Source: a virus
Lineage: Duplodnaviria; Heunggongvirae; Uroviricota; Caudoviricetes
Virus record (IMG/VR): IMGVR_UViG_2690316149_000019
DNA length: 33,563 nt
Reading direction: 5' to 3' (one strand)
Numbering within the stretch: the stretch's first letter is position 1; the number at the start of each line of letters is the position of its first letter. Made by a program: the position numbers and the translations under genes. Of this stretch, positions 1 to 33,563 are shown one piece after another. Under the pieces are notes generated by a model. That model saw only the letters and a program-made list of their open reading frames with translations, was not told where the DNA came from and made no database searches.

Positions 1-23
1 TAAACCCTGTTTTCCTTGCCATA

Positions 24-70
24 GACACCATCCCTGTCTTCCCCCACATGATGTGGGGGTTTTTTTTATC
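24..70. repeat. attL: attL core: 47-bp direct repeat shared with 32536-32582, overlapping a rho-independent terminator hairpin (cccccaca/tgtggggg plus T-tract)
   Basis: Seen in sequence: gacaccatccctgtcttcccccacatgatgtggggg(t)ttttttttatc occurs at both prophage ends with a single G/T difference at the stem/T-tract junction. Confidence 0.85.
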
Positions 71-152
71 AATTACTTACATGCAATCAAAAGTAAAAAC
101 AGGTACTTATCGAAAGCTGTAAGGGTTTGGAGCGGTTTCAAAATTTCTTGAG

Positions 153-171
153 TGTGGACACTATGTGGACA
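153..171. promoter_or_regulatory. Two direct TGTGGACA motifs 11 bp apart; candidate arm-type integrase binding sites
   Basis: tgtggacactatgtggaca lies between the attL core and the int stop codon; the same motif pair recurs next to attR at 32468-32486. Confidence 0.45.
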
Positions 172-186
172 CTCAGAGGGGGAAAT

Positions 187-1167
187 TTATAACGTCACTC
201 CGCCTTTTAGTGGATTCAGAGCGACGGCATTTTGCAGATAGTCAGGCGCAAGGTGCGCATAGGCCATCGTCTGCTGAATGCTCGCATGTCCCAGAATCTG
301 TTGCAGTGCGATTATATTGCCCCCATTCATCATGAAATGGCTTGCGAATGTATGCCGCAGGATGTGGGTTGCCTGATTGGGTGGTATATCAGGTTTCACT
401 CTGCGTAAAATCCCGCAAAATTTCTCATAATCAACTTTGAATAATTTGGCGCTGGCCTCCTCTTTAACTTTTTTCTCCAGTTCCTCAGAAATCGGCACGG
501 TTCGCTTTTTACCGTTTTTGGTTTTCAGGAAGGTAACCCTGCAATTTGTAATCTGTGCTGGTTTTAGCGTGGCAACTTCCGTCCATCTTCCTCCGGTGCT
601 CAGACATAAAAGCGCGACAAGTAAGTCATCACCAGCCAAAACATTTAACAGTTTTTCGATTTCTGCTTTTTCCAGGAACGTCATTTCAGGGTTGGCCTCC
701 GCCAGTGGCGGCAGTCCGTGAATTGGGTGTTGCCCGGAAAATTCATCCAATTGAATTAATTTTGTGAACATGCCGGATAATCGGTACATGTCACGGTTTA
801 TCGTTGCGGCACTGATACCATCACGTAGTCGCATGGAACGATAATCCATCAAAGCCCTTTTGCTCATCCTGCTCACTGGTATATCACCTATGCCGCTGAT
901 GGTTTTGAGTAGATGATTAAACTCTTTTGTTCCATGCTCGTGGTTTTGCCCGTGATATTTCCACCAGATGTCCAGCAACTCACTCAAAGTCCGGCGGTCT
1001 GCTCGCTGGCCTCCCCATTCTTTCTGACTGGCATTGGCGATTGTGTATCGCTCAAATGCTAGTGCTTCAGCTTTTCTTTCGAATTTCCTGCGGATGCGTT
1101 TTCCGTCGCGACCGCGAGGTCTAATGTCCACTTCATAGCGACCATCATCGAGCTTCTTAATTGCCAT
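187..1167 (-). CDS. int: Tyrosine-family site-specific integrase (P2 Int-like)
   Basis: The 336-aa ORF contains MAIKKLDDGRYEVDIRP (P2 Int-like N-terminus) and C-terminal catalytic motifs HTLRHTFAS and LGHASIQQTMAYAHL. Start set at the internal ATG (1167), which has a GGAGGG Shine-Dalgarno 9 nt upstream. Confidence 0.9.
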   Translation of the reverse strand: MAIKKLDDGRYEVDIRPRGRDGKRIRRKFERKAEALAFERYTIANASQKEWGGQRADRRTLSELLDIWWKYHGQNHEHGTKEFNHLLKTISGIGDIPVSRMSKRALMDYRSMRLRDGISAATINRDMYRLSGMFTKLIQLDEFSGQHPIHGLPPLAEANPEMTFLEKAEIEKLLNVLAGDDLLVALLCLSTGGRWTEVATLKPAQITNCRVTFLKTKNGKKRTVPISEELEKKVKEEASAKLFKVDYEKFCGILRRVKPDIPPNQATHILRHTFASHFMMNGGNIIALQQILGHASIQQTMAYAHLAPDYLQNAVALNPLKGGVTL

Positions 1168-1236: not shown

Positions 1237-1530
1237 TTAGCCAATCCTTTTCGCGGAGTGGTTGGACTCTGTTGACTCTGGCCCAATGTGCGCGAGAGCC
1301 GGTGCGATTTGTCCTGCGTCCGGCGCGGTTTTATCTGTCATAAGCCATAGAGCATATTTTTGGAATGTGGGATGCATAGTGATTTTTAGCAAAGCTGTGC
1401 CACCGGGTTCAAAGTTTCCTCCTTCATATTTTTTAAGTGTGCTTAGCGGTAACTCTATGATTTCACAGAATTTTGATTGGCTTAGCCCTTCAGCCTCACG
1501 CAAGGCCTTAATCTTTTCGCTTAATTTCAT
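1237..1530 (-). CDS. C: Immunity repressor (P2 C-like, XRE-type helix-turn-helix)
   Basis: 97 aa, with an N-terminal HTH (LSQSKFCEIIELPLSTLKKYE) and the P2 C-like C-terminal motif GQIAPALAH. Sits divergent from cox next to int, as in P2. Confidence 0.8.
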   Translation of the reverse strand: MKLSEKIKALREAEGLSQSKFCEIIELPLSTLKKYEGGNFEPGGTALLKITMHPTFQKYALWLMTDKTAPDAGQIAPALAHIGPESTESNHSAKRIG

Positions 1531-1651: not shown

Positions 1652-1939
1652 ATGAGGGTACCATATATGGACGCTGAAAATTATGTGATTCAGTATCCGC
1701 TTGATGCGGTTCATGTGGATAAATTTGCTGATTTATTAGGGAAGCCAAAGACAGCCGTCAGTGAAATGGTGAAGGCAAATAAATTACCAATTATTGAATT
1801 GCGTGATCCTTGCAAACCGAAGGCTCGTGCCGGTGAAAAATGGGTTTTCATTCCTGAGTTTAATCGCGCTGTACGTGAGGCGTTTTATAACCGACCGGTT
1901 GAACAGCGTGATGCATGGCTTTTGTGGATGGGGTTGTGA
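1652..1939 (+). CDS. cox: Cox-like excisionase / early transcriptional regulator
   Basis: 95-aa ORF, first gene of the rightward early operon and divergent from C, in the P2 cox position. Confidence 0.7.
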   Translation: MRVPYMDAENYVIQYPLDAVHVDKFADLLGKPKTAVSEMVKANKLPIIELRDPCKPKARAGEKWVFIPEFNRAVREAFYNRPVEQRDAWLLWMGL

Positions 1940-6953: not shown

Positions 6954-7430
6954 ATGAGCATCGCAGCTAAAAATCTGCTTAATCGCTATTGGGATCGCCG
7001 ACTACCTGTCGATCCGTTTAAGCTCGCCGCAGCGTGGGGTGCAAGAGTGGAGCCGCTCAGGGAACCAGCGAATGGGTTAAGTGGTTCAGCCGTAATAGAA
7101 AATGGCATACCTTATATTTATTTTAACTCAAATGAACATTACAACCGCCAACGCTTTACTGTAGCGCATGAGCTCGGTCATCATGTTTTAGGGCATACTC
7201 AAGACGGAGAATATCATCGCGATATTGTAGGCAACTACTCAACTGGCATCCGTGATTATCGTGAAATAGAAGCTAACCAGTTTGCTGCAGAGCTATTGAT
7301 GCCGGAAGAGGCCATTCGTCAACTAGTGTCGCGTATAGGCGTTGATAGTACATTACGTTTGGCAAACATATTTAACGTTTCTGAGGCTGCTATGCACTGG
7401 CGTCTTAAAGCGTTGGGTATGGCTTACTAA
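6954..7430 (+). CDS. ImmA/IrrE-family (COG2856-like) zinc metallopeptidase
   Basis: HEXXH motif in FTVAHELGHHVLGH and a downstream glutamate-containing motif (EANQFAAELLMP). 158 aa with a strong AGGAGG ribosome-binding site. Confidence 0.75.
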   Translation: MSIAAKNLLNRYWDRRLPVDPFKLAAAWGARVEPLREPANGLSGSAVIENGIPYIYFNSNEHYNRQRFTVAHELGHHVLGHTQDGEYHRDIVGNYSTGIRDYREIEANQFAAELLMPEEAIRQLVSRIGVDSTLRLANIFNVSEAAMHWRLKALGMAY

Positions 7431-7460
7431 TACCCTCTTTAACTTTTTTCAAACCGGTTT

Positions 7461-7495
7461 AAAATCACCATTATTTTATTAATAATGGTGATTTT
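7461..7495. promoter_or_regulatory. Perfect 15-bp inverted repeat (aaaatcaccattatt / aataatggtgatttt, 5-nt loop) abutting the ATG of the membrane-protein gene
   Basis: Seen in sequence. Preceded by the 10-bp palindrome aaaccggttt (7451-7460) and followed by a T-run; the right arm contains the only Shine-Dalgarno-like element (GGTGA) for ATG 7498. Confidence 0.6.
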
Positions 7496-7497
7496 TT

Positions 7498-8118
7498 ATG
7501 GCAGATATCGACCTCTCTGGCCAATCTCCGGCTCAGTCTTCCCAGCCATCCAAAACTTCAACCTTTCCACATCCACCTAGCGATGCCGATCCAGATATTT
7601 TGTTACGTAGAGAAGTGCATGATGGCATGGAAAGGAGGGGAATGCGCTTAGTTTTGTCAGCCACCGTACTTTTTTTTGCCATAATGTTTTTATGGAAAGG
7701 TCTGTATTTCGCTCTCGAAGTCGGAAATGGTTTGCTTGCGGCTAAAAGTAGTATTGTTTCAGCGTTGGCACAAAATGATGAAAAGGTTGTTTGCGAACCT
7801 AAAACTAAATGTATTGAGCCTAAACAGCAGACAATGAAACCTACAGAAAAAACTCCCGGCATGTCAACAAAGGGTGATAGAGTAATGCCAAACTTATCTA
7901 CAGATTGGCTTTCTGCAAGTTCGCTAATTGCCATAGTCGCTTTCATCCTTGGTGTTGGCTTGACGTTAATCCTTACCCTACTTAAGTCCGCTTTTCATCA
8001 TCCGACTGATAAAAATCTCAATGAGCAAAAAACAACAGATGCGATTGAGTTGGCGACTCCCTTAAGTGAGTTAATCGCGGGTATTATTAATTATCTCAAG
8101 AGCAAATTTTCTAAATAA
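7498..8118 (+). CDS. Membrane protein of unknown function (two predicted transmembrane helices)
   Basis: 206 aa with hydrophobic stretches LVLSATVLFFAIMFLWKGLYFAL and LIAIVAFILGVGLTLILTLL and a Pro/Ser/Thr-rich N-terminus; lower GC than the phage core. Confidence 0.6.
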   Translation: MADIDLSGQSPAQSSQPSKTSTFPHPPSDADPDILLRREVHDGMERRGMRLVLSATVLFFAIMFLWKGLYFALEVGNGLLAAKSSIVSALAQNDEKVVCEPKTKCIEPKQQTMKPTEKTPGMSTKGDRVMPNLSTDWLSASSLIAIVAFILGVGLTLILTLLKSAFHHPTDKNLNEQKTTDAIELATPLSELIAGIINYLKSKFSK

Positions 8119-8327
8119 CGTCCTCTTGGTTATTTTTTAAATCAGCACCATTAGTGCCGGTTTTTTTATGCTGTTTTACTGTAATTTCCCTGTTTTTAAG
8201 CCGTGCATGCAGCAGGTGCATGGTTTTGCATGCGCAGGAAGTGTCCGTTCTGGCCGAGCACCGGCAGAACGGACGCGGATCCAGAACGGTCATGCAACTG
8301 CATTCAAACCACCCCATGAAGCGGGCG

Positions 8328-8346
8328 GGCGAGGCGGGGAAAGCAC
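8328..8346. other. cos: cos site (19-nt cohesive end sequence, P2-type)
   Basis: ggcgaggcggggaaagcac matches the P2 cohesive-end sequence as I recall it. It lies between the accessory locus and Q, where cos sits in P2, and a 10-bp stem-loop (8243-8274) is nearby. Confidence 0.7.
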
Positions 8347-8515
8347 TGCGCGCTGGCGGTGGTGCTGATTTTATTTTTTCAGCGTCTGAGCGCGTCGTGA
8401 TGGCGTTTAGATTGTGCGCCGGGGCGTTGGTGTGTCTGCGGGCTGTTTTGTGCGGTGGTGAGCGTGTGAGGGCGTGATGACGGGGGGTAAAAAAGCCGCC
8501 CGCAGGCGGCGATGT

Positions 8516-17763: not shown

Positions 17764-18549
17764 TTATGAGTGATTTTTATTTGATGCTTTGTATTCTAAA
17801 ACCTTCTTATTGGCGTAAAAGAATTTTGTATATGACAGGAATATAACCAGACCTGAAGTGAAATAGACGAGGGATAGTATTAATAATGCTTTTTTGTGAC
17901 TGTTATTATCTTTAATCTCCTGGCTTAACCATTCGGAGTCCTCCTCGTTTAGCTGTAAGAGCTTATTGCAGGCGATTTCAGGAAGTGTGTCTTTTATAAA
18001 TACGTTTTGCAGTCTCTTGCAATCGGCAAGGCTATAAGTTTTATTAAATTCAACTGCTTTATTTTTGAAGGATAAAAGAACTTTGTCACTATAAACATAG
18101 TACATCATATTTTTATATGGTATGCCTATGGCATCTCTTACTATAGCGGATTGTTTGTTGTGTATATAACATGCGAAGAGAATATAAATAATACTGGCCA
18201 GAATTACAATTATTGTTTTAATTATGTGTGGTGGTTTTGTTATGTCACCCCAGATGCGAGTAAGGAAAAAATACGATGTTTTTAGTTTTCCATCAATCAG
18301 TCCCTGCTGTATCATTCTCACATTTTCAATGCCTGATACATTGATTCCGTTAATTATTTTAAATAGTTGAATGTCGCGCCACTCGCGGTCAAGTCTTTTT
18401 AATTTTTTGTCTGAATATCCAAAATTGAAATAATGTGCAATAAGCCTCATAAGGTTACTTTTACCAAAGCTAAAAAATGCTAATACTGCAAAGCTACAAA
18501 GGAAAAAAACGATTAGCCCCCACACATTAGTCACATTATAGCTGACCAT
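17764..18549 (-). CDS. AT-rich moron: membrane protein of unknown function (P2 orf30 position)
   Basis: 261 aa with three hydrophobic helices (N-terminal, central, C-terminal), Lys/Asn/Ile/Tyr-rich. Much lower GC than the flanking tail genes and transcribed against the late operon. Confidence 0.7.
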   Translation of the reverse strand: MVSYNVTNVWGLIVFFLCSFAVLAFFSFGKSNLMRLIAHYFNFGYSDKKLKRLDREWRDIQLFKIINGINVSGIENVRMIQQGLIDGKLKTSYFFLTRIWGDITKPPHIIKTIIVILASIIYILFACYIHNKQSAIVRDAIGIPYKNMMYYVYSDKVLLSFKNKAVEFNKTYSLADCKRLQNVFIKDTLPEIACNKLLQLNEEDSEWLSQEIKDNNSHKKALLILSLVYFTSGLVIFLSYTKFFYANKKVLEYKASNKNHS

Positions 18550-21058: not shown

Positions 21059-23308
21059 ATGAGCACAAAATTCAAAACCGTTATCACCACTGCTGGTGCA
21101 GCAAAGCTGGCAGCGGCAACCGCGCCGGGAGGGCGGAAGGTCAACATTACCACGATGGCCGTCGGGGATGGCGGTGGTAAATTGCCTGTCCCGGATGCCG
21201 GACAGACCGGGCTTATCCACGAAGTCTGGCGACATGCGCTGAACAAAATCAGCCAGGACAAACGAAACAGTAATTATATTATCGCAGAGCTGGTTATTCC
21301 GCCGGAGGTGGGCGGTTTCTGGATGCGTGAGCTTGGCCTGTACGATGATGCTGGAACGTTAATTGCCGTGGCGAACATGGCTGAAAGTTATAAGCCAGCT
21401 CTTGCCGAAGGCTCAGGGCGTTCGCAGACCTGCCGCATGGTCATCATCGTCAGCAGTGTGGCCTCAGTGGCGCTGACCATTGACACCACAACGGTGATGG
21501 CAACGCAGGATTACGTTGATGACAAAATTGCAGAACATGAACAGTCACGACGTCACCCGGACGCCTCGCTGACCGCCAAAGGTTTTACTCAGTTAAGCAG
21601 TGCGACCAACAGCACGTCTGAAACACTCGCCGCAACACCAAAAGCGGTAAAAGCAGCATATGACCTTGCTAACGGGAAATACACTGCACAGGACGCCACC
21701 ACAGCGCGAAAAGGCCTTGTCCAGCTCAGTAGTGCCACCAACAGCACGTCTGAAACGCTCGCCGCAACACCAAAAGCGGTAAAAGCAGCATATGACCTTG
21801 CTAACGGGAAATACACTGCACAGGACGCCACCACCGCGCGAAAAGGCCTTGTCCAGCTCAGTAGCGCCACCAACAGCGATTCTGAAACGCTTGCGGCAAC
21901 GCCAAAGGCGGTTAAGACAGCGTATGACCTTGCTAACGGGAAATACACTGCACAGGATGCCACCACAGCGCGAAAAGGTCTTGTCCAGCTCAGTAGCGCC
22001 ACCAACAGTGATTCTGAAACGCTGGCTGCAACACCAAAAGCGGTGAAGTCTGCCTATGACAATGCTGAAAAACGTCTTCAGAAAGATCAGAACGGTGCGG
22101 ATATTCCTGATAAAGGACGCTTCCTGAGTAACATTAATGTTTACAGCAAAGGTGAAGTGGATAAGAAAAAGGGAATGCGAAAGTATTCGTTTGCAGCCCC
22201 TGCAAATGTCGTTGCCGGGAAGTGGTATCCCGTTATCTTTCGCCGTGCTGCCAGCCTTTCAGGAGAAATGGCATCCCGCGTCGTTATTTCAACTGGTTGT
22301 TATAACGGCGATTATGTAATGAATAACTGCGAGTTTAATGGCATGGTTATGCCCGGAGGCTGGACCGATCGTGGTTCATATGCGGCAGGTTATTTCTGGA
22401 CGTATCAGACTAATGAGCGTTCAATCCATTCCATTGTTACAAGCCTGAAAGATGATGATGTATGTAGTGTTTTTTATGTTGAAGCCAGAGCTTTCCCTGT
22501 GCAAATTCTTGCAGAGGAAGGGCTAACGGTTATTGTTCCGACAGAGGATTATGTCGTCGGTCAAACGACATATAAGTGGGGGGCAACTAATCCCGCTACA
22601 GAAAGCACGAACGCACAGGCTATTCTGGATTTTAAAAATGGACGTGGTTATTACTGTTCACATCCATTTATTTCCAGCCTTTCAGGAAATGCTGCAACAG
22701 CAACGAAGTTAGCGAACGCAAGAAATATTAATGGTGTCAGATTTGATGGCTCTGCCGATATAAATATTAATACACTGGTATCCAGAAACCGTGTTAATGC
22801 ATTAGGTGGGAGCGTAAAGGGGACACCAGGTATTCAGATGTATGAGGCATACAACAATGGCTACCCAACAGCCTATGGTAATGTGCTTCATCTCACTGGC
22901 GTAACCGCAGTAGGAGAGGGTGAGTTACTTATTGGCTGGAGTGGAACCAGCGGTGCTCATGCTCCGGCATATATTCGTTCCCGACGAGATACCACAGATG
23001 CTAACTGGTCTGGATGGGCGCAACTATATACAACTGCTCATAAACCCTCAGCGGGAGATGTTGGTGCATACACCAAAACTGAGTCAGATTCACGTTATGT
23101 GAGAGACATGCGGCTGGGCGGTGCATCTACATATAAACCAGCAAATAATGGTACTACATGGACGCATCAGGCTCCGTCAGGTTGCGTATATACCGGCATT
23201 ATTGTTCAGGATACCGGCTCAAACTCTGCCGATAACATTGGTGGCGTATATTACAGACCGGTGCAGAAATACATTAACGGGACATGGTATAACGTGGCGC
23301 AGGTATAA
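21059..23308 (+). CDS. H: Tail fibre protein H with internal tandem repeats
   Basis: 749 aa with a conserved P2-like N-terminus (MSTKFKTVITTAGAAKLAAATAPGG), then four tandem 44-aa repeats, then a C-terminal domain of about 400 aa. Confidence 0.88.
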   Translation: MSTKFKTVITTAGAAKLAAATAPGGRKVNITTMAVGDGGGKLPVPDAGQTGLIHEVWRHALNKISQDKRNSNYIIAELVIPPEVGGFWMRELGLYDDAGTLIAVANMAESYKPALAEGSGRSQTCRMVIIVSSVASVALTIDTTTVMATQDYVDDKIAEHEQSRRHPDASLTAKGFTQLSSATNSTSETLAATPKAVKAAYDLANGKYTAQDATTARKGLVQLSSATNSTSETLAATPKAVKAAYDLANGKYTAQDATTARKGLVQLSSATNSDSETLAATPKAVKTAYDLANGKYTAQDATTARKGLVQLSSATNSDSETLAATPKAVKSAYDNAEKRLQKDQNGADIPDKGRFLSNINVYSKGEVDKKKGMRKYSFAAPANVVAGKWYPVIFRRAASLSGEMASRVVISTGCYNGDYVMNNCEFNGMVMPGGWTDRGSYAAGYFWTYQTNERSIHSIVTSLKDDDVCSVFYVEARAFPVQILAEEGLTVIVPTEDYVVGQTTYKWGATNPATESTNAQAILDFKNGRGYYCSHPFISSLSGNAATATKLANARNINGVRFDGSADININTLVSRNRVNALGGSVKGTPGIQMYEAYNNGYPTAYGNVLHLTGVTAVGEGELLIGWSGTSGAHAPAYIRSRRDTTDANWSGWAQLYTTAHKPSAGDVGAYTKTESDSRYVRDMRLGGASTYKPANNGTTWTHQAPSGCVYTGIIVQDTGSNSADNIGGVYYRPVQKYINGTWYNVAQV
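21578..22059 (+). repeat. Four tandem in-frame copies of a 132-bp unit inside H
   Basis: The marker accaacagc recurs at 21605, 21737, 21869 and 22001, an exact 132-bp period. Copies differ at a few synonymous and missense positions (NSTSE vs NSDSE). Confidence 0.9.
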
Positions 23309-24178: not shown

Positions 24179-25225
24179 GTGATATTTTCTACAAAGAAAA
24201 ATATATGGAATAACGTCATCGCGGGTACAAAAATGACTATAAAAAAAACATATGTAACACCAACAGAAATAGTGAAATATTTTTATGACAAACCGGAAAA
24301 CGATAACGTAAAAGAGAGAAAAACAATTGAGAGCCTGACCCGTCTCAAACCTGAGTGGGAAAATACTCTCGATATGATGAAGTTAATACGCAATTGTGAA
24401 AAGCTAGCAACTGAAGGTATTTTAATGGAATTATCTTCAGGACATACTCTTTTGGACCGTTGCTATTTCGCACCGAATTTCAATGAATCAGATGCGAAAT
24501 ATGGAAAGTATGATTTTATAGCTGATGGATTTGAGTCAATCATAGACCGCCTTAGTCCTTCCGTTTTACCTGTTGTTGTTGAAAAAAGTGATGGTTCACA
24601 TGATCTTGGTACTAGTTTTATTGTTGGGAATAACCACACGATATTTACAGCCAGACATGTTATTGAAGACATGAAGAGTATCAGGATACTTAGAGCTGGT
24701 GGTGAGGCTTTACCAATACATAAAATCTTTGTATCTAACGATGAACGTATTGATATCGCTTTAGTTTTCACAACCATTCCGAATGAAGATAATATTCAAC
24801 CACTTAAGGTCTCAACCAAAGCCTCGGTACTGGATGAAATTTTATCAATAGGATTTCCACCCATTCCAGGATTTGATGCATTAAAGTTATATGACGTTTC
24901 GCATATAAATTCGTTTGTCCGACTGTCAAAGGGGCGAATTGTTGGTTCTGGTCACTCTTACTTAGATTCACAAGACTTTTTATTATTCAATGCTAGGGTT
25001 AAGGGGGGGAATAGCGGTGGCCCTATAATTAACAAATACGGCTTTGTTGTTGGTATGCTTGTACAAATACCAATATCATCTGAGGACAGTTCAAAGATTG
25101 ATAACCTTGGATATGGTATAGCTGTAACAGGAAAAAGCCTGCTGGATGCCATTACATTTACAGAAAATGGCCGCGAATTAACACTCACCGACCGAGGAAA
25201 TGGAGAATATTCAACTCTAGCATAA
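24179..25225 (+). CDS. AT-rich moron: trypsin-like (S1/chymotrypsin-fold) serine protease with an unknown N-terminal domain of about 140 aa
   Basis: Catalytic triad context in order: TARHVIED (His), ERIDIALVF (Asp), GGNSGGPII (GxSGG Ser). The annotated start is a GTG; an in-frame ATG at 24233 is an alternative. Occupies the P2 Z/fun position between G and FI. Confidence 0.75.
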   Translation: MIFSTKKNIWNNVIAGTKMTIKKTYVTPTEIVKYFYDKPENDNVKERKTIESLTRLKPEWENTLDMMKLIRNCEKLATEGILMELSSGHTLLDRCYFAPNFNESDAKYGKYDFIADGFESIIDRLSPSVLPVVVEKSDGSHDLGTSFIVGNNHTIFTARHVIEDMKSIRILRAGGEALPIHKIFVSNDERIDIALVFTTIPNEDNIQPLKVSTKASVLDEILSIGFPPIPGFDALKLYDVSHINSFVRLSKGRIVGSGHSYLDSQDFLLFNARVKGGNSGGPIINKYGFVVGMLVQIPISSEDSSKIDNLGYGIAVTGKSLLDAITFTENGRELTLTDRGNGEYSTLA

Positions 25226-32435: not shown

Positions 32436-32460
32436 AGCCCCTCAGTTGAGGGGCTTATTT
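32436..32460 (+). terminator. Rho-independent terminator after ogr
   Basis: agcccctca (loop) tgaggggct followed by tattta. Confidence 0.6.
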
Positions 32461-32467
32461 ATGGTCG

Positions 32468-32486
32468 ATGTGGACGCTATGTGGAC
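32468..32486. promoter_or_regulatory. Two direct ATGTGGAC motifs 11 bp apart; candidate arm-type integrase binding sites on the right arm
   Basis: atgtggacgctatgtggac, the same motif and spacing as at 153-171. Confidence 0.45.
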
Positions 32487-32535
32487 AGTGCTTGATATAA
32501 ATCCATTTATATCATCAGGTTAGGTGCTTTTTTGT

Positions 32536-32582
32536 GACACCATCCCTGTCTTCCCCCACATGATGTGGGGTTTTTTTTTATC
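32536..32582. repeat. attR: attR core: 47-bp direct repeat of 24-70
   Basis: 46 of 47 positions identical to the attL copy; includes the same terminator-like hairpin and T-tract. Confidence 0.85.
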
Positions 32583-32660
32583 CTCAATTTGCCTGCTGCT
32601 TAATGCATTGCAGATGATTTGCTTCCGTTATACTAGCGTCAGTTGATAGCGGGAGTATTT

Positions 32661-33563
32661 ATGAATCAATCTTATGGACGGCTGGTCAGTCGGGCGGCGA
32701 TTGCTGCGACGGCGATGGCTTCGTTGCTATTGCTGATTAAAATTTTTGCATGGTGGTATACCGGGTCGGTGAGTATTCTCGCCGCGCTGGTGGATTCGCT
32801 GGTGGATATCGGCGCGTCGTTGACGAATTTATTGGTGGTGCGATATTCCCTGCAACCTGCCGACGATAATCACTCGTTTGGTCACGGTAAAGCTGAGTCC
32901 CTCGCGGCGCTGGCGCAAAGTATGTTTATCTCCGGTTCGGCACTATTCCTGTTTTTGACGGGTATTCAACATCTGATATCTCCAACACCGATGACAGATC
33001 CAGGCGTCGGGGTTATCGTGACAATTGTGGCGCTAATTTGTACGATTATCCTTGTCTCGTTTCAGCGTTGGGTGGTGCGGCGGACGCAAAGCCAGGCGGT
33101 GCGGGCTGATATGCTACATTACCAGTCTGATGTTATGATGAACGGCGCAATTCTGCTGGCGCTGGGGTTGTCCTGGTACGGCTGGCATCGCGCCGATGCT
33201 CTGTTTGCATTGGGAATCGGCATCTATATTTTATATAGCGCGTTACGCATGGGATATGAGGCGGTACAGTCATTACTGGATCGCGCATTGCCTGATGAGG
33301 AACGGCAAGAAATTATTGATATCGTGACTTCCTGGCCGGGTGTTAGCGGCGCTCACGATCTTCGCACGCGGCAGTCAGGGCCGACCCGCTTTATTCAGAT
33401 TCATTTGGAAATGGAAGACTCTCTGCCTTTGGTTCAGGCACATATGGTGGCGGATCAGGTAGAGCAGGCTATTTTACGGCGTTTTCCGGGATCGGATGTA
33501 ATTATCCATCAGGACCCCTGTTCCGTCGTACCCAGGGAGGGTAAACGGTCTATGCTTTCATAA
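32661..33563 (+). CDS. fieF: Cation diffusion facilitator FieF (ferrous-iron/zinc efflux), host gene
   Basis: 300 aa from [54 protein letters not shown], recognised as enterobacterial FieF/YiiP. The stop codon is the last triplet of the window. Confidence 0.9.

What the first reader, a model, noticed from the sequence alone, without database searches (positions are those of the whole stretch)
1..70. Prophage integrated at a terminator hairpin upstream of fieF, probably the 3' end of the cpxP transcript (CpxQ sRNA region)
The 47-bp att core is not a tRNA 3' end; it is a hairpin (cccccaca/tgtggggg) plus T-tract, that is, an intrinsic terminator. The window begins with TAA and ends with fieF; in E. 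coli K-12 the gene upstream of fieF is cpxP, whose 3' UTR is processed into the Hfq-dependent sRNA CpxQ. If so, the phage targets and reconstitutes the 3' end of an sRNA or terminator, and the attL and attR copies differ by one G/T at the stem/T-tract junction, which could subtly change termination or sRNA function in lysogens. This site also differs from the P2 att core as I recall it, consistent with the divergent integrase.
Basis: partly seen in the sequence, partly recalled or inferred. Interest (0 to 1): 0.55.

Follow-up and report, generated by a model that had tools for sequence, protein, structure and literature searches.

The report
P2-like prophage inserted in CpxQ
A P2-like prophage of the already described WPhi integration type sits in the tail of the cpxP transcript, which is the small RNA CpxQ. 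It rebuilds that tail with its own copy, so this is a correct but largely known and very common arrangement.

Summary
A 47-bp direct repeat (24-70 and 32536-32582, one G/T difference) brackets a 32.5-kb P2-like prophage, and it contains an 8-bp GC-rich hairpin followed by T8.

The interpretation also holds. Bases 1-70 are the DNA directly after the cpxP stop codon in E. coli K-12, that is the cpxP 3' UTR that gives CpxQ. Empty sites carry one copy of the core between cpxP and fieF.

The site is not new. The integrase is 98.5% identical to phage WPhi Int, and the attP cores of WPhi, L-413C and five other phages equal the attL copy. The literature already places WPhi and L-413C integration at cpxP-fieF.

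About 14% of complete E. coli genomes (781 of 5426) carry this junction.

Two things are added here.
- Natural polymorphisms put strand exchange left of position 51. The CpxQ terminator loop, 3' stem and U-tract in a lysogen therefore come from the phage.
- The T at 32571 is a host allele that also occurs in empty sites. It lies in the orphan attR copy. The cpxP-linked copy has the majority sequence.

I found no held paper that links CpxQ to this att site. Interest is low to moderate.

The parts
1..23 (+). Host-only part of the cpxP 3' UTR, directly after the cpxP stop codon. It holds the 5' seed end of CpxQ and the RNase E processing region.
   Evidence: It is identical to K-12 DNA after the cpxP TAG. 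It differs from the phage P arm at the matching position in attP and attR. A CpxQ start near position 10 is inferred from the published length of about 58-60 nt (PMC9438474, plus my own recollection of 58 nt).
24..70 (+). attL core (B-O-P'), the 47-bp segment identical in phage and host. It holds CpxQ stem-loop 1, the terminator hairpin 41-59, the U-tract 60-67 and 3 more bases.
   Evidence: Repeat family D2. Identical to the attP core of seven free phages. Terminator-like on the + strand. RNA fold.
51..70 (+). The part of attL and CpxQ that comes from the phage in lysogens: last loop base, 3' stem, U-tract. Strand exchange lies somewhere in 24-50.
   Evidence: The loop allele C, found in K-12-type hosts, is in 154 attR copies and 0 attL copies among complete E. 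coli genomes. The same pattern holds in IMG/VR contigs.
71..186 (.). P' arm of the attachment site, with two arm-type Int sites TGTGGACA at 153-160 and 164-171, spaced 11 bp apart.
   Evidence: The consensus tgTGGaCa for P2-type arm sites is given in PMC3448106. The arm aligns with attP of L-413C-type phages.
187..1167 (-). int, a tyrosine recombinase of 326 aa, WPhi type. The longest ORF runs to 1197.
   Evidence: Pfam Int_N and Phage_integrase. 98.5% identical to WPhi Int. 52% identical to P2 Int.
1237..1530 (-). Immunity repressor C (HTH). It is 56% identical to WPhi C, so probably a different immunity type.
1652..1939 (+). cox, the excisionase and switch regulator. The related record KC618326 annotates its start at 1667.
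   Evidence: Pfam Phage_Cox, E 1e-23. Annotation.
32436..32455 (.). Bidirectional terminator-like hairpin after ogr. In circular attP form it is the first terminator-like site downstream of int on the minus strand. Integration separates it from int.
   Evidence: predicted on both strands.
32456..32535 (.). P arm, with arm-type sites TGTGGACG at 32469-32476 and TGTGGACA at 32480-32487.
32536..32582 (+). attR core (P-O-B'), an orphan copy of the 3' 44 nt of CpxQ with T at 32571. The stem is 7 bp and the T-tract is T9. It lies upstream of the fieF promoter region.
   Evidence: The T allele is present in empty host sites.
32661..33563 (+). fieF (CDF cation efflux transporter), the host gene to the right of the prophage. 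The longest ORF starts at 32643.
   Evidence: and the alignment to the K-12 annotation.

Best explanation
Positions 1-70 are the left junction (attL) of a WPhi-type P2-like prophage. [quoted passage not shown]

1. The phage attP carries an exact 47-bp copy of the last 44 nt of CpxQ plus 3 further bases.
2. The phage tyrosine integrase (187-1167, minus strand) binds paired TGTGGACA arm sites on both sides of the core. It exchanges strands inside the core, somewhere between 24 and 50. A candidate overlap region is the 7-bp spacer CCATCCC between the inverted repeats GACA and TGTC at 24-38.
3. After integration cpxP keeps an intact CpxQ and terminator. Its 5' part is host DNA and its terminator loop, 3' stem and U-tract are phage DNA.
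4. A second, partial copy (attR) sits in front of an undisturbed fieF promoter region and shields fieF from phage read-through.

Shown here: the repeat, the identity with attP and attB, the synteny, the allele pattern that places the crossover, and the frequency of the junction. Inferred: the exact crossover point, unchanged CpxQ function, and the terminator roles.
For: - Repeat and hairpin.
- K-12 empty site cpxP-core-fieF.
- Seven free-phage attP cores are identical to the attL copy.
- Int is 98.5% identical to WPhi Int, and 45 phage records hold an Int at least 95% identical.
- Arm sites are paired at 11-bp spacing on both arms.
- 781 of 5426 complete E. coli genomes have the cpxP 3' UTR to int junction.
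- Exact 60-mer haplotype counts. attL: (A,G) 735, (A,T) 32, (C,G) 0. attR: (A,G) 421, (A,T) 23, (C,G) 154.
- The C allele is present in the empty K-12 site and in none of 11 free-phage attP sequences (7, 4).
- Individual lysogens show attL (A,T) with attR (C,G) or (A,G).
- Literature: WPhi and L-413C share one attP core, and their integration point is given at MG1655 coordinate 4104392 (PMC3448106). The E. coli W genome paper lists prophage Wphi1 at cpxP-fieF (PMC3032704). CpxQ is processed from the cpxP 3' UTR and spans almost all of it (PMC9438474, PMC4817254).
Against: - The window does not contain cpxP itself, so the link rests on 23 host bases and on synteny in other genomes.
- The CpxQ 5' end could not be read from a held paper. 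The start near position 10 is inferred from its published length.
- No recombination or RNA data exist for this strain.
- The crossover position is deduced from population polymorphisms, not measured.
- The T allele occurs in both phage-derived and host-derived positions (32 attL, 23 attR). Some exchange or recurrent mutation at the G5/T8 boundary must therefore occur, and this is not explained.
Confidence: 0.9

Rival explanations
1. The repeat is only a duplicated terminator or a repetitive intergenic element. It would have nothing to do with site-specific recombination, and the phage genes would lie between two copies by coincidence.
For: The hairpin and T-tract look like any intrinsic terminator. 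E. coli has families of repeated palindromic elements (general knowledge).
Against: Non-lysogens have exactly one copy, between cpxP and fieF. Free phage genomes carry the same 47 bp between ogr and int. Every second copy examined is tied to the P arm or the P' arm. Integrase arm sites flank it.
Confidence: 0.01
2. Integration changes Cpx regulation rather than being neutral. In the prophage, int has lost the bidirectional terminator at 32436-32455 that follows it in attP form. Transcripts covering int could then run antisense through CpxQ and into cpxP. If int is co-transcribed with C from Pc, as I recall for P2, this would happen in the lysogenic state. Separately, the phage-borne or attR partial CpxQ copy, with its Hfq-binding terminator and an internal single-stranded stretch, could be expressed as a CpxQ-like RNA or a decoy.
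For: No terminator-like site is predicted on the minus strand between the int stop and window base 1. The same holds through the 3' part of cpxP in a lysogen with the identical junction. On the minus strand the core hairpin is followed by AAGACAGG, not a U-tract. The ogr terminator is predicted on both strands.
Against: No promoter-like site points into the attR copy. There are no expression data. The terminator scan is a simple consensus scan and cannot see Rho-dependent termination. The junction is present in 14% of E. coli genomes without any reported Cpx phenotype in the papers searched.
Confidence: 0.12
3. The G/T difference between the two copies is a sequencing or assembly error at the boundary of two homopolymers, or a new mutation in this strain.
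For: The change lies at a G5/T8 junction, a context prone to error.
Against: The same 4G+9T allele is found at the fieF-proximal copy in 245 complete genomes, and four of five sampled were empty sites from unrelated strains. The exact configuration of the window, attL G with attR T, recurs in strain 120899. 23 genomes in all have the attR T copy.
Confidence: 0.05

Closest known systems
Phage WPhi (Peduovirus Wphi) and Yersinia phage L-413C: Int/attP module with attB between cpxP and fieF
   Same: Int is 98.5% identical to WPhi Int. The 47-bp attP core is identical. The host site is the same (PMC3448106, PMC3032704). The arm-site consensus and the gene order ogr-attP-int-C-cox are the same.
   Different: The immunity repressor is only 56% identical to WPhi C. 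The P' arm is of the L-413C type rather than the WPhi type. The cargo genes differ.
Phage P2 integration at locI, the 3' end of the sRNA gene cyaR
   Same: Same phage genus. Same logic of integrating at the 3' end of an sRNA gene and duplicating it. The E. coli W genome paper lists P2-like prophages at cyaR, rybB and ssrA (PMC3032704).
   Different: Int is only 52% identical. The core and the host gene are different. That the P2 core is 27 bp is my recollection and was not tested here.
Integration into 3' ends of tRNA and tmRNA genes (phage 186, HP1, Fels-2, P4)
   Same: The phage carries a copy of the 3' part of a structured, highly conserved RNA gene, so integration restores the gene (PMC3448106).
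   Different: The target here is not a tRNA-like RNA. It is a 3' UTR-derived Hfq-dependent sRNA together with the terminator of a protein-coding gene.
Lambda sib retroregulation of int
   Same: Integration separates int from a downstream RNA element that lies beyond attP in the free phage.
   Different: This is a resemblance in layout only. No RNase III site or regulatory effect has been shown here.

Membership tests
WPhi/L-413C-type P2-like att/Int module | Tyrosine recombinase closely related to WPhi Int | tested here: met
   Pfam Int_N and Phage_integrase. 98.5% identity over 326 aa to WPhi Int from AJ245959.
WPhi/L-413C-type P2-like att/Int module | attP core sequence shared with WPhi and L-413C | tested here: met
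   The attL core is 47/47 identical to the attP of WPhi, L-413C, HQ103, P2_AC1, R18C, fiAA91-ss and 12474II.
WPhi/L-413C-type P2-like att/Int module | attB between cpxP and fieF: one copy in empty sites, two copies flanking the prophage | tested here: met
   The location is published in PMC3448106 and PMC3032704.
WPhi/L-413C-type P2-like att/Int module | P2-type arm sites (direct repeats tgTGGaCa) on both arms | tested here: met
   153-160 and 164-171; 32469-32476 and 32480-32487. Consensus from PMC3448106.
WPhi/L-413C-type P2-like att/Int module | Cox-type recombination directionality factor next to the C repressor | tested here: met
   Phage_Cox at 1652-1939, E 1e-23.
WPhi/L-413C-type P2-like att/Int module | Int-dependent integration and excision at this core | not testable with these tools
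   This needs a recombination assay. The only indirect support is the allele pattern across lysogens.
CpxQ sRNA (cpxP 3' UTR-derived, Hfq-dependent) | Lies directly downstream of the cpxP stop codon and ends at the cpxP intrinsic terminator | tested here: met
   Window 1-70 matches K-12 at 69/70 directly after the cpxP TAG. It holds the only + strand terminator-like site between cpxP and fieF.
CpxQ sRNA (cpxP 3' UTR-derived, Hfq-dependent) | Exceptional sequence conservation across enterobacteria | tested here: met
   The exact 47-mer, preceded by CCTTGCCATA, follows cpxP-like sequence in 22 of the 23 matching stretches from a scan of one genome per species. They include Escherichia, Salmonella, Citrobacter, Enterobacter, Kluyvera, Yokenella, Erwinia and Edwardsiella. 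Conservation is described in PMC9438474.
CpxQ sRNA (cpxP 3' UTR-derived, Hfq-dependent) | Match to a curated RNA family model | tested here: inconclusive
   Rfam 15 gave no CpxQ hit. The only hit is RF02628 Hrs1 on the opposite strand and below threshold: 51 bits (cut off by the window end) and 41 bits in K-12, against a gathering score of 56.4.
CpxQ sRNA (cpxP 3' UTR-derived, Hfq-dependent) | RNase E processing and Hfq binding of the RNA made in the lysogen | not testable with these tools
   Needs a Northern blot, RNA-seq or Hfq co-immunoprecipitation.
tRNA/tmRNA-type integration site | The core overlaps a tRNA or tmRNA gene | tested here: not met
   ARAGORN finds no tRNA or tmRNA in the window.
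Phage P2 proper (locI/cyaR site) | P2 Int and the P2 core | tested here: not met
   Int is 52% identical to P2 Int of NC_001895. The host site is cpxP-fieF, not cyaR. The P2 core sequence itself was not compared.

The most novel reading that the evidence does not exclude
Lysogeny by WPhi-type phages is not neutral for the Cpx envelope stress response. About one E. coli genome in seven makes a chimeric CpxQ whose terminator end is phage-encoded. Phage and host exchange terminator alleles, and the T allele (7-bp stem) is found on both sides. The prophage int transcript, cut off from its own terminator, may run antisense across CpxQ and cpxP. The phage-borne copy of the Hfq-binding 3' module may also act as a CpxQ mimic or an Hfq/CpxQ-target decoy during infection.
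Probability: 0.1. Interest if true: 0.6.

Novelty: already known. Interest (0 to 1): 0.3.

Why it matters
CpxQ is the non-coding arm of the Cpx inner-membrane stress response and one of the best conserved enterobacterial sRNAs. This common family of P2-like phages uses its 3' end as its landing pad. It does so in 781 of 5426 complete E. coli genomes, and related integrases sit next to the same site in Salmonella, Citrobacter, Kluyvera and Yokenella.

This explains why the phage core is so long and so invariant. It also means that the CpxQ terminator in many natural isolates is phage DNA.

In practice:
- Annotation pipelines should expect a second, partial CpxQ copy upstream of fieF in lysogens.
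- Studies of CpxQ in wild strains should check for the prophage.
- The site is a reliable marker for finding these prophages, some of which carry cdt toxin genes.

The basic fact of integration at cpxP-fieF was already published, so the gain is the link to CpxQ and the location of the crossover.

Tried and rejected
- Rfam at gathering thresholds gave nothing for the window. With permissive thresholds only a reverse-strand, sub-threshold Hrs1 hit appeared, so Rfam could not confirm CpxQ.
- I could not obtain the CpxQ sequence or its seed coordinates from held papers or one supplement. The primary papers on WPhi att (PMC1482927, PMC113030) are not held.
- Literature searches for CpxQ together with prophage, attB or integrase found no paper that links the two.
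- I first assumed that genomes with one 'place' lacked attR. This was wrong. Their attR carries the loop C allele, which breaks the 28-nt seed that megablast needs.
- I first expected attL never to carry T. It does in 32 genomes, because some phages carry the T allele themselves. The G/T site alone therefore does not place the crossover. The loop A/C site does.
- A scan of IMG/VR for an intact attP with one particular P-arm spelling found nothing. A core-only scan gave 58 loci, which were mostly attL or attR ends.
- The TGTGGACA motif is not enriched in the window as a whole. Only its paired arrangement next to the core is meaningful.

Full report
**1. What is in the sequence**

The window starts with 70 bases of non-coding DNA and ends with fieF.

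A search for direct repeats finds one 47-nt family. Its copies lie at 24-70 and 32536-32582 and differ at a single base, G59 against T32571. The chance expectation for such a pair in 33.5 kb is about 4e-18.

Each copy contains a GC-rich hairpin followed by a T run.
- The left copy is CCCCCACA-TGA-TGTGGGGG followed by T8. It is called terminator-like on the + strand only. As RNA it forms an 8-bp stem of -13.8 kcal/mol.
- The right copy has a 7-bp stem and T9, at -11.4 kcal/mol.

ARAGORN finds no tRNA or tmRNA anywhere in the window.

**2. What lies between the repeats**

Between the repeats is a complete P2-like (Peduovirus) prophage.
- Next to the left repeat are a tyrosine integrase (187-1167, minus strand; Pfam Int_N and Phage_integrase), a helix-turn-helix repressor (1237-1530, minus strand) and a Cox protein (1652-1939).
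- ogr and its terminator precede the right repeat.
- The left 3 kb is 98-99% identical to Yersinia phages HQ103 and L-413C, to R18C and to other Peduovirus records.
- The integrase is 98.5% identical to that of phage WPhi but only 52% identical to P2 Int. The repressor is 56% identical to WPhi C.

The prophage therefore combines the WPhi integration module with another immunity type.

**3. Identity of the host site**

- Window 1-70 matches all 5426 complete E. coli genomes.
- In K-12 the match begins at the base after the cpxP stop codon TAG. The window's TAA is the next in-frame triplet, not the annotated stop. fieF starts 148 bp after cpxP.
- The empty K-12 site reads cpxP, 23 nt, the 47-bp core, then the fieF upstream region. 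This is exactly the host halves of the two junctions in the window.
- Lysogens with an identical left junction have cpxP immediately upstream.

CpxQ is described as an RNA of about 60 nt that RNase E cuts from the cpxP mRNA. It spans almost the entire 3' UTR, and its 5' end is a seed region (PMC9438474, PMC6755755, PMC4817254). The distance from the stop codon to the end of the T-tract is 67 nt. CpxQ therefore corresponds to about window 8/10-67, and the core holds its last 44 nt. The exact 5' end is inferred, because no held paper gave the sequence.

Rfam has no CpxQ model. Its only signal is a sub-threshold match of RF02628 Hrs1 to the opposite strand.

**4. It is a site-specific recombination site**

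- Seven free-phage genomes carry the same 47 bp between ogr and int, and all seven are identical to the attL copy. They are WPhi, L-413C, HQ103, P2_AC1, R18C, fiAA91-ss and 12474II.
- Left of the core the phages read GGTGCTTTTTTGT (TTTTTTTT in R18C), as at attR. Right of the core they read AATTACTTAC or AATCACTTAC, as at attL.
- Paired TGTGGACA motifs with 11-bp spacing lie on both arms, at 153-171 and 32469-32487. They match the published P2-type arm-site consensus tgTGGaCa (PMC3448106).

**5. It is already known**

- Nilsson et al. list WPhi and L-413C at the same MG1655 coordinate (4104392) and state that their attP cores are identical (PMC3448106).
- The E. coli W genome paper lists prophage 'Wphi1 (P2)' at 'cpxP-fieF', alongside P2-like prophages at cyaR, rybB and ssrA (PMC3032704).

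Both the site and the general habit of P2-like phages to land at the 3' ends of small RNA genes were therefore on record before CpxQ was named. Searches for CpxQ together with prophage, attB or integrase found no held paper that makes the connection.

**6. How common it is**

- 781 of 5426 complete E. coli genomes (14%) have a junction covering at least 80% of window 1-260, that is cpxP 3' UTR, core, P' arm and the end of int.
- A scan of one genome per species found the exact core 23 times. In 22 it follows the conserved cpxP 3' UTR. The genera include Escherichia, Salmonella, Citrobacter, Enterobacter, Kluyvera, Yokenella, Erwinia and Edwardsiella.
- About half of these are followed by P'-arm-like DNA rather than native intergenic DNA.
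- Five hits outside the E. coli-type prophage have an integrase 67-85% identical to this one next to the core.
- In Citrobacter amalonaticus only a P' arm remnant and a Fic gene remain between cpxP and fieF.

**7. Where the strands are exchanged, and what the G/T difference means**

Two natural polymorphisms lie in the core.
- The hairpin loop base 51 is A in the window and in most E. coli, and C in K-12.
- Base 59 is G or T.

The table gives the number of complete E. coli genomes with an exact 60-mer for each haplotype.

| Junction | (A,G) | (A,T) | (C,G) |
|---|---|---|---|
| attL | 735 | 32 | 0 |
| attR | 421 | 23 | 154 |

- C occurs in empty host sites.
- C occurs in none of 11 free-phage attP sequences (7, 4).
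- C occurs in no attL end among the IMG/VR contigs, but in 3 of 26 attR ends.

A host that had C therefore ends up with A in the cpxP-linked copy and C in the fieF-linked copy. This requires strand exchange to the left of position 51. The identity block starts at 24, so exchange lies within 24-50. The inverted repeat GACA / TGTC with the 7-bp spacer CCATCCC (24-38) is a plausible pair of core sites with an overlap region, but that is inference.

The consequence is that the loop, 3' stem and U-tract of CpxQ in every lysogen are phage DNA.

The T allele at 59 is a host allele as well.
- 245 genomes carry it at the fieF-proximal copy.
- Four of five sampled were empty sites in unrelated strains.

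In this window the T in attR is thus the host's original base, and the G in attL came with the phage. The lysogen's CpxQ has the majority 8-bp stem.

Some phages carry T themselves. Three lysogens examined have attL (A,T) with attR (C,G) or (A,G). The allele therefore circulates in both pools, and how it moves between them is not explained.

**8. Likely consequences**

The host-only bases 1-23 hold the CpxQ 5' seed and the processing region and are untouched. The phage-supplied part is identical to the host consensus apart from the polymorphisms above. The simplest reading is therefore neutral reconstitution.

The DNA between the core and fieF, which Grabowicz et al. describe as holding the fieF promoter (PMC4817254), is unchanged at attR. 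The attR hairpin stands between phage genes and fieF.

One layout feature deserves a test. In circular attP form the first terminator-like site downstream of int on its own strand is the bidirectional hairpin after ogr (32455-32436). After integration int is followed by the core, whose minus-strand hairpin has no U-tract. No terminator-like site is predicted until well inside cpxP. Read-through of an int transcript would be antisense to CpxQ. That int is co-transcribed with C from Pc in P2 is my recollection and was not checked here. There are no expression data, so I give this idea about 0.1.

**9. Verdict**

The TAA is not the cpxP stop codon, and the variant base sits in the orphan copy and is of host origin.

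The feature is a member of the published WPhi/L-413C att system and is very common, so it is rated as already known. The added value here is the explicit overlap with CpxQ, the population evidence that the sRNA's terminator end is phage-derived in lysogens, and the wide spread of the same target across Enterobacterales.

Noticed in passing
window 6954-8477: Cargo block between the replication gene A and the portal gene Q. It holds an M78/ImmA-IrrE-type peptidase (158 aa) that PADLOC matches to CapP-like and RmrA-like models, followed by ORFs of 206 aa and 107 aa with no family hit. It may be a defence or regulatory cassette in the classical P2 accessory hotspot.
   Followed up: partly
window 24179-25225: A 348-aa ORF with a trypsin-like serine protease domain lies between the tail-fibre assembly gene and the sheath gene, the second P2 accessory hotspot. 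It gives weak PADLOC hits to the protease parts of RT-Protease, LmuA and HamA models.
   Followed up: partly
window 17764-18549 (minus strand): A 261-aa ORF on the opposite strand fills a gap of about 0.9 kb between tail genes S and V. The related prophage KC618326 has no such gap. There is no hit in Pfam, PADLOC or NCBIfam.
   Followed up: partly
window 1-67 minus strand; L001 1495-1567: Rfam RF02628 (Hrs1, an Erwinia Hfq-regulated sRNA) matches the strand opposite to CpxQ. Scores are 51 bits (cut off by the window end) and 41 bits in K-12, against a gathering score of 56.4. The model begins with an A-run and a hairpin, as the reverse complement of a terminator would. Hrs1 may be the CpxQ homologue modelled on the wrong strand.
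   Followed up: partly
window 21578-22066: Three tandem copies of a repeat with a 132-nt period (83-90% identical) lie inside the tail-fibre gene at 21059-23308.
   Followed up: no
L025 1045-2990 (Citrobacter amalonaticus); L034 (Erwinia aeris): Between cpxP/CpxQ and fieF there is a small island without an integrase. It has a P'-arm-like remnant with TGTAGACA repeats, an unknown 339-aa ORF and a Fic/DOC gene. Erwinia aeris has an unknown 219-aa ORF at the same place. These look like decayed prophage remnants at the CpxQ site.
   Followed up: partly
L017 7133-9275; L019 6058-8200: Related prophages at the same cpxP-fieF site carry the cytolethal distending toxin V operon (cdtABC) in the hotspot that holds the M78 peptidase block in this window.
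   Followed up: no
L009 9685-12260; L015 744-2336: Some lysogens hold decayed prophages at this site. Strain M217 has an IS21-family element inside the replication gene. Strain P276M retains only int, a C fragment and ogr between attL and attR.
   Followed up: no
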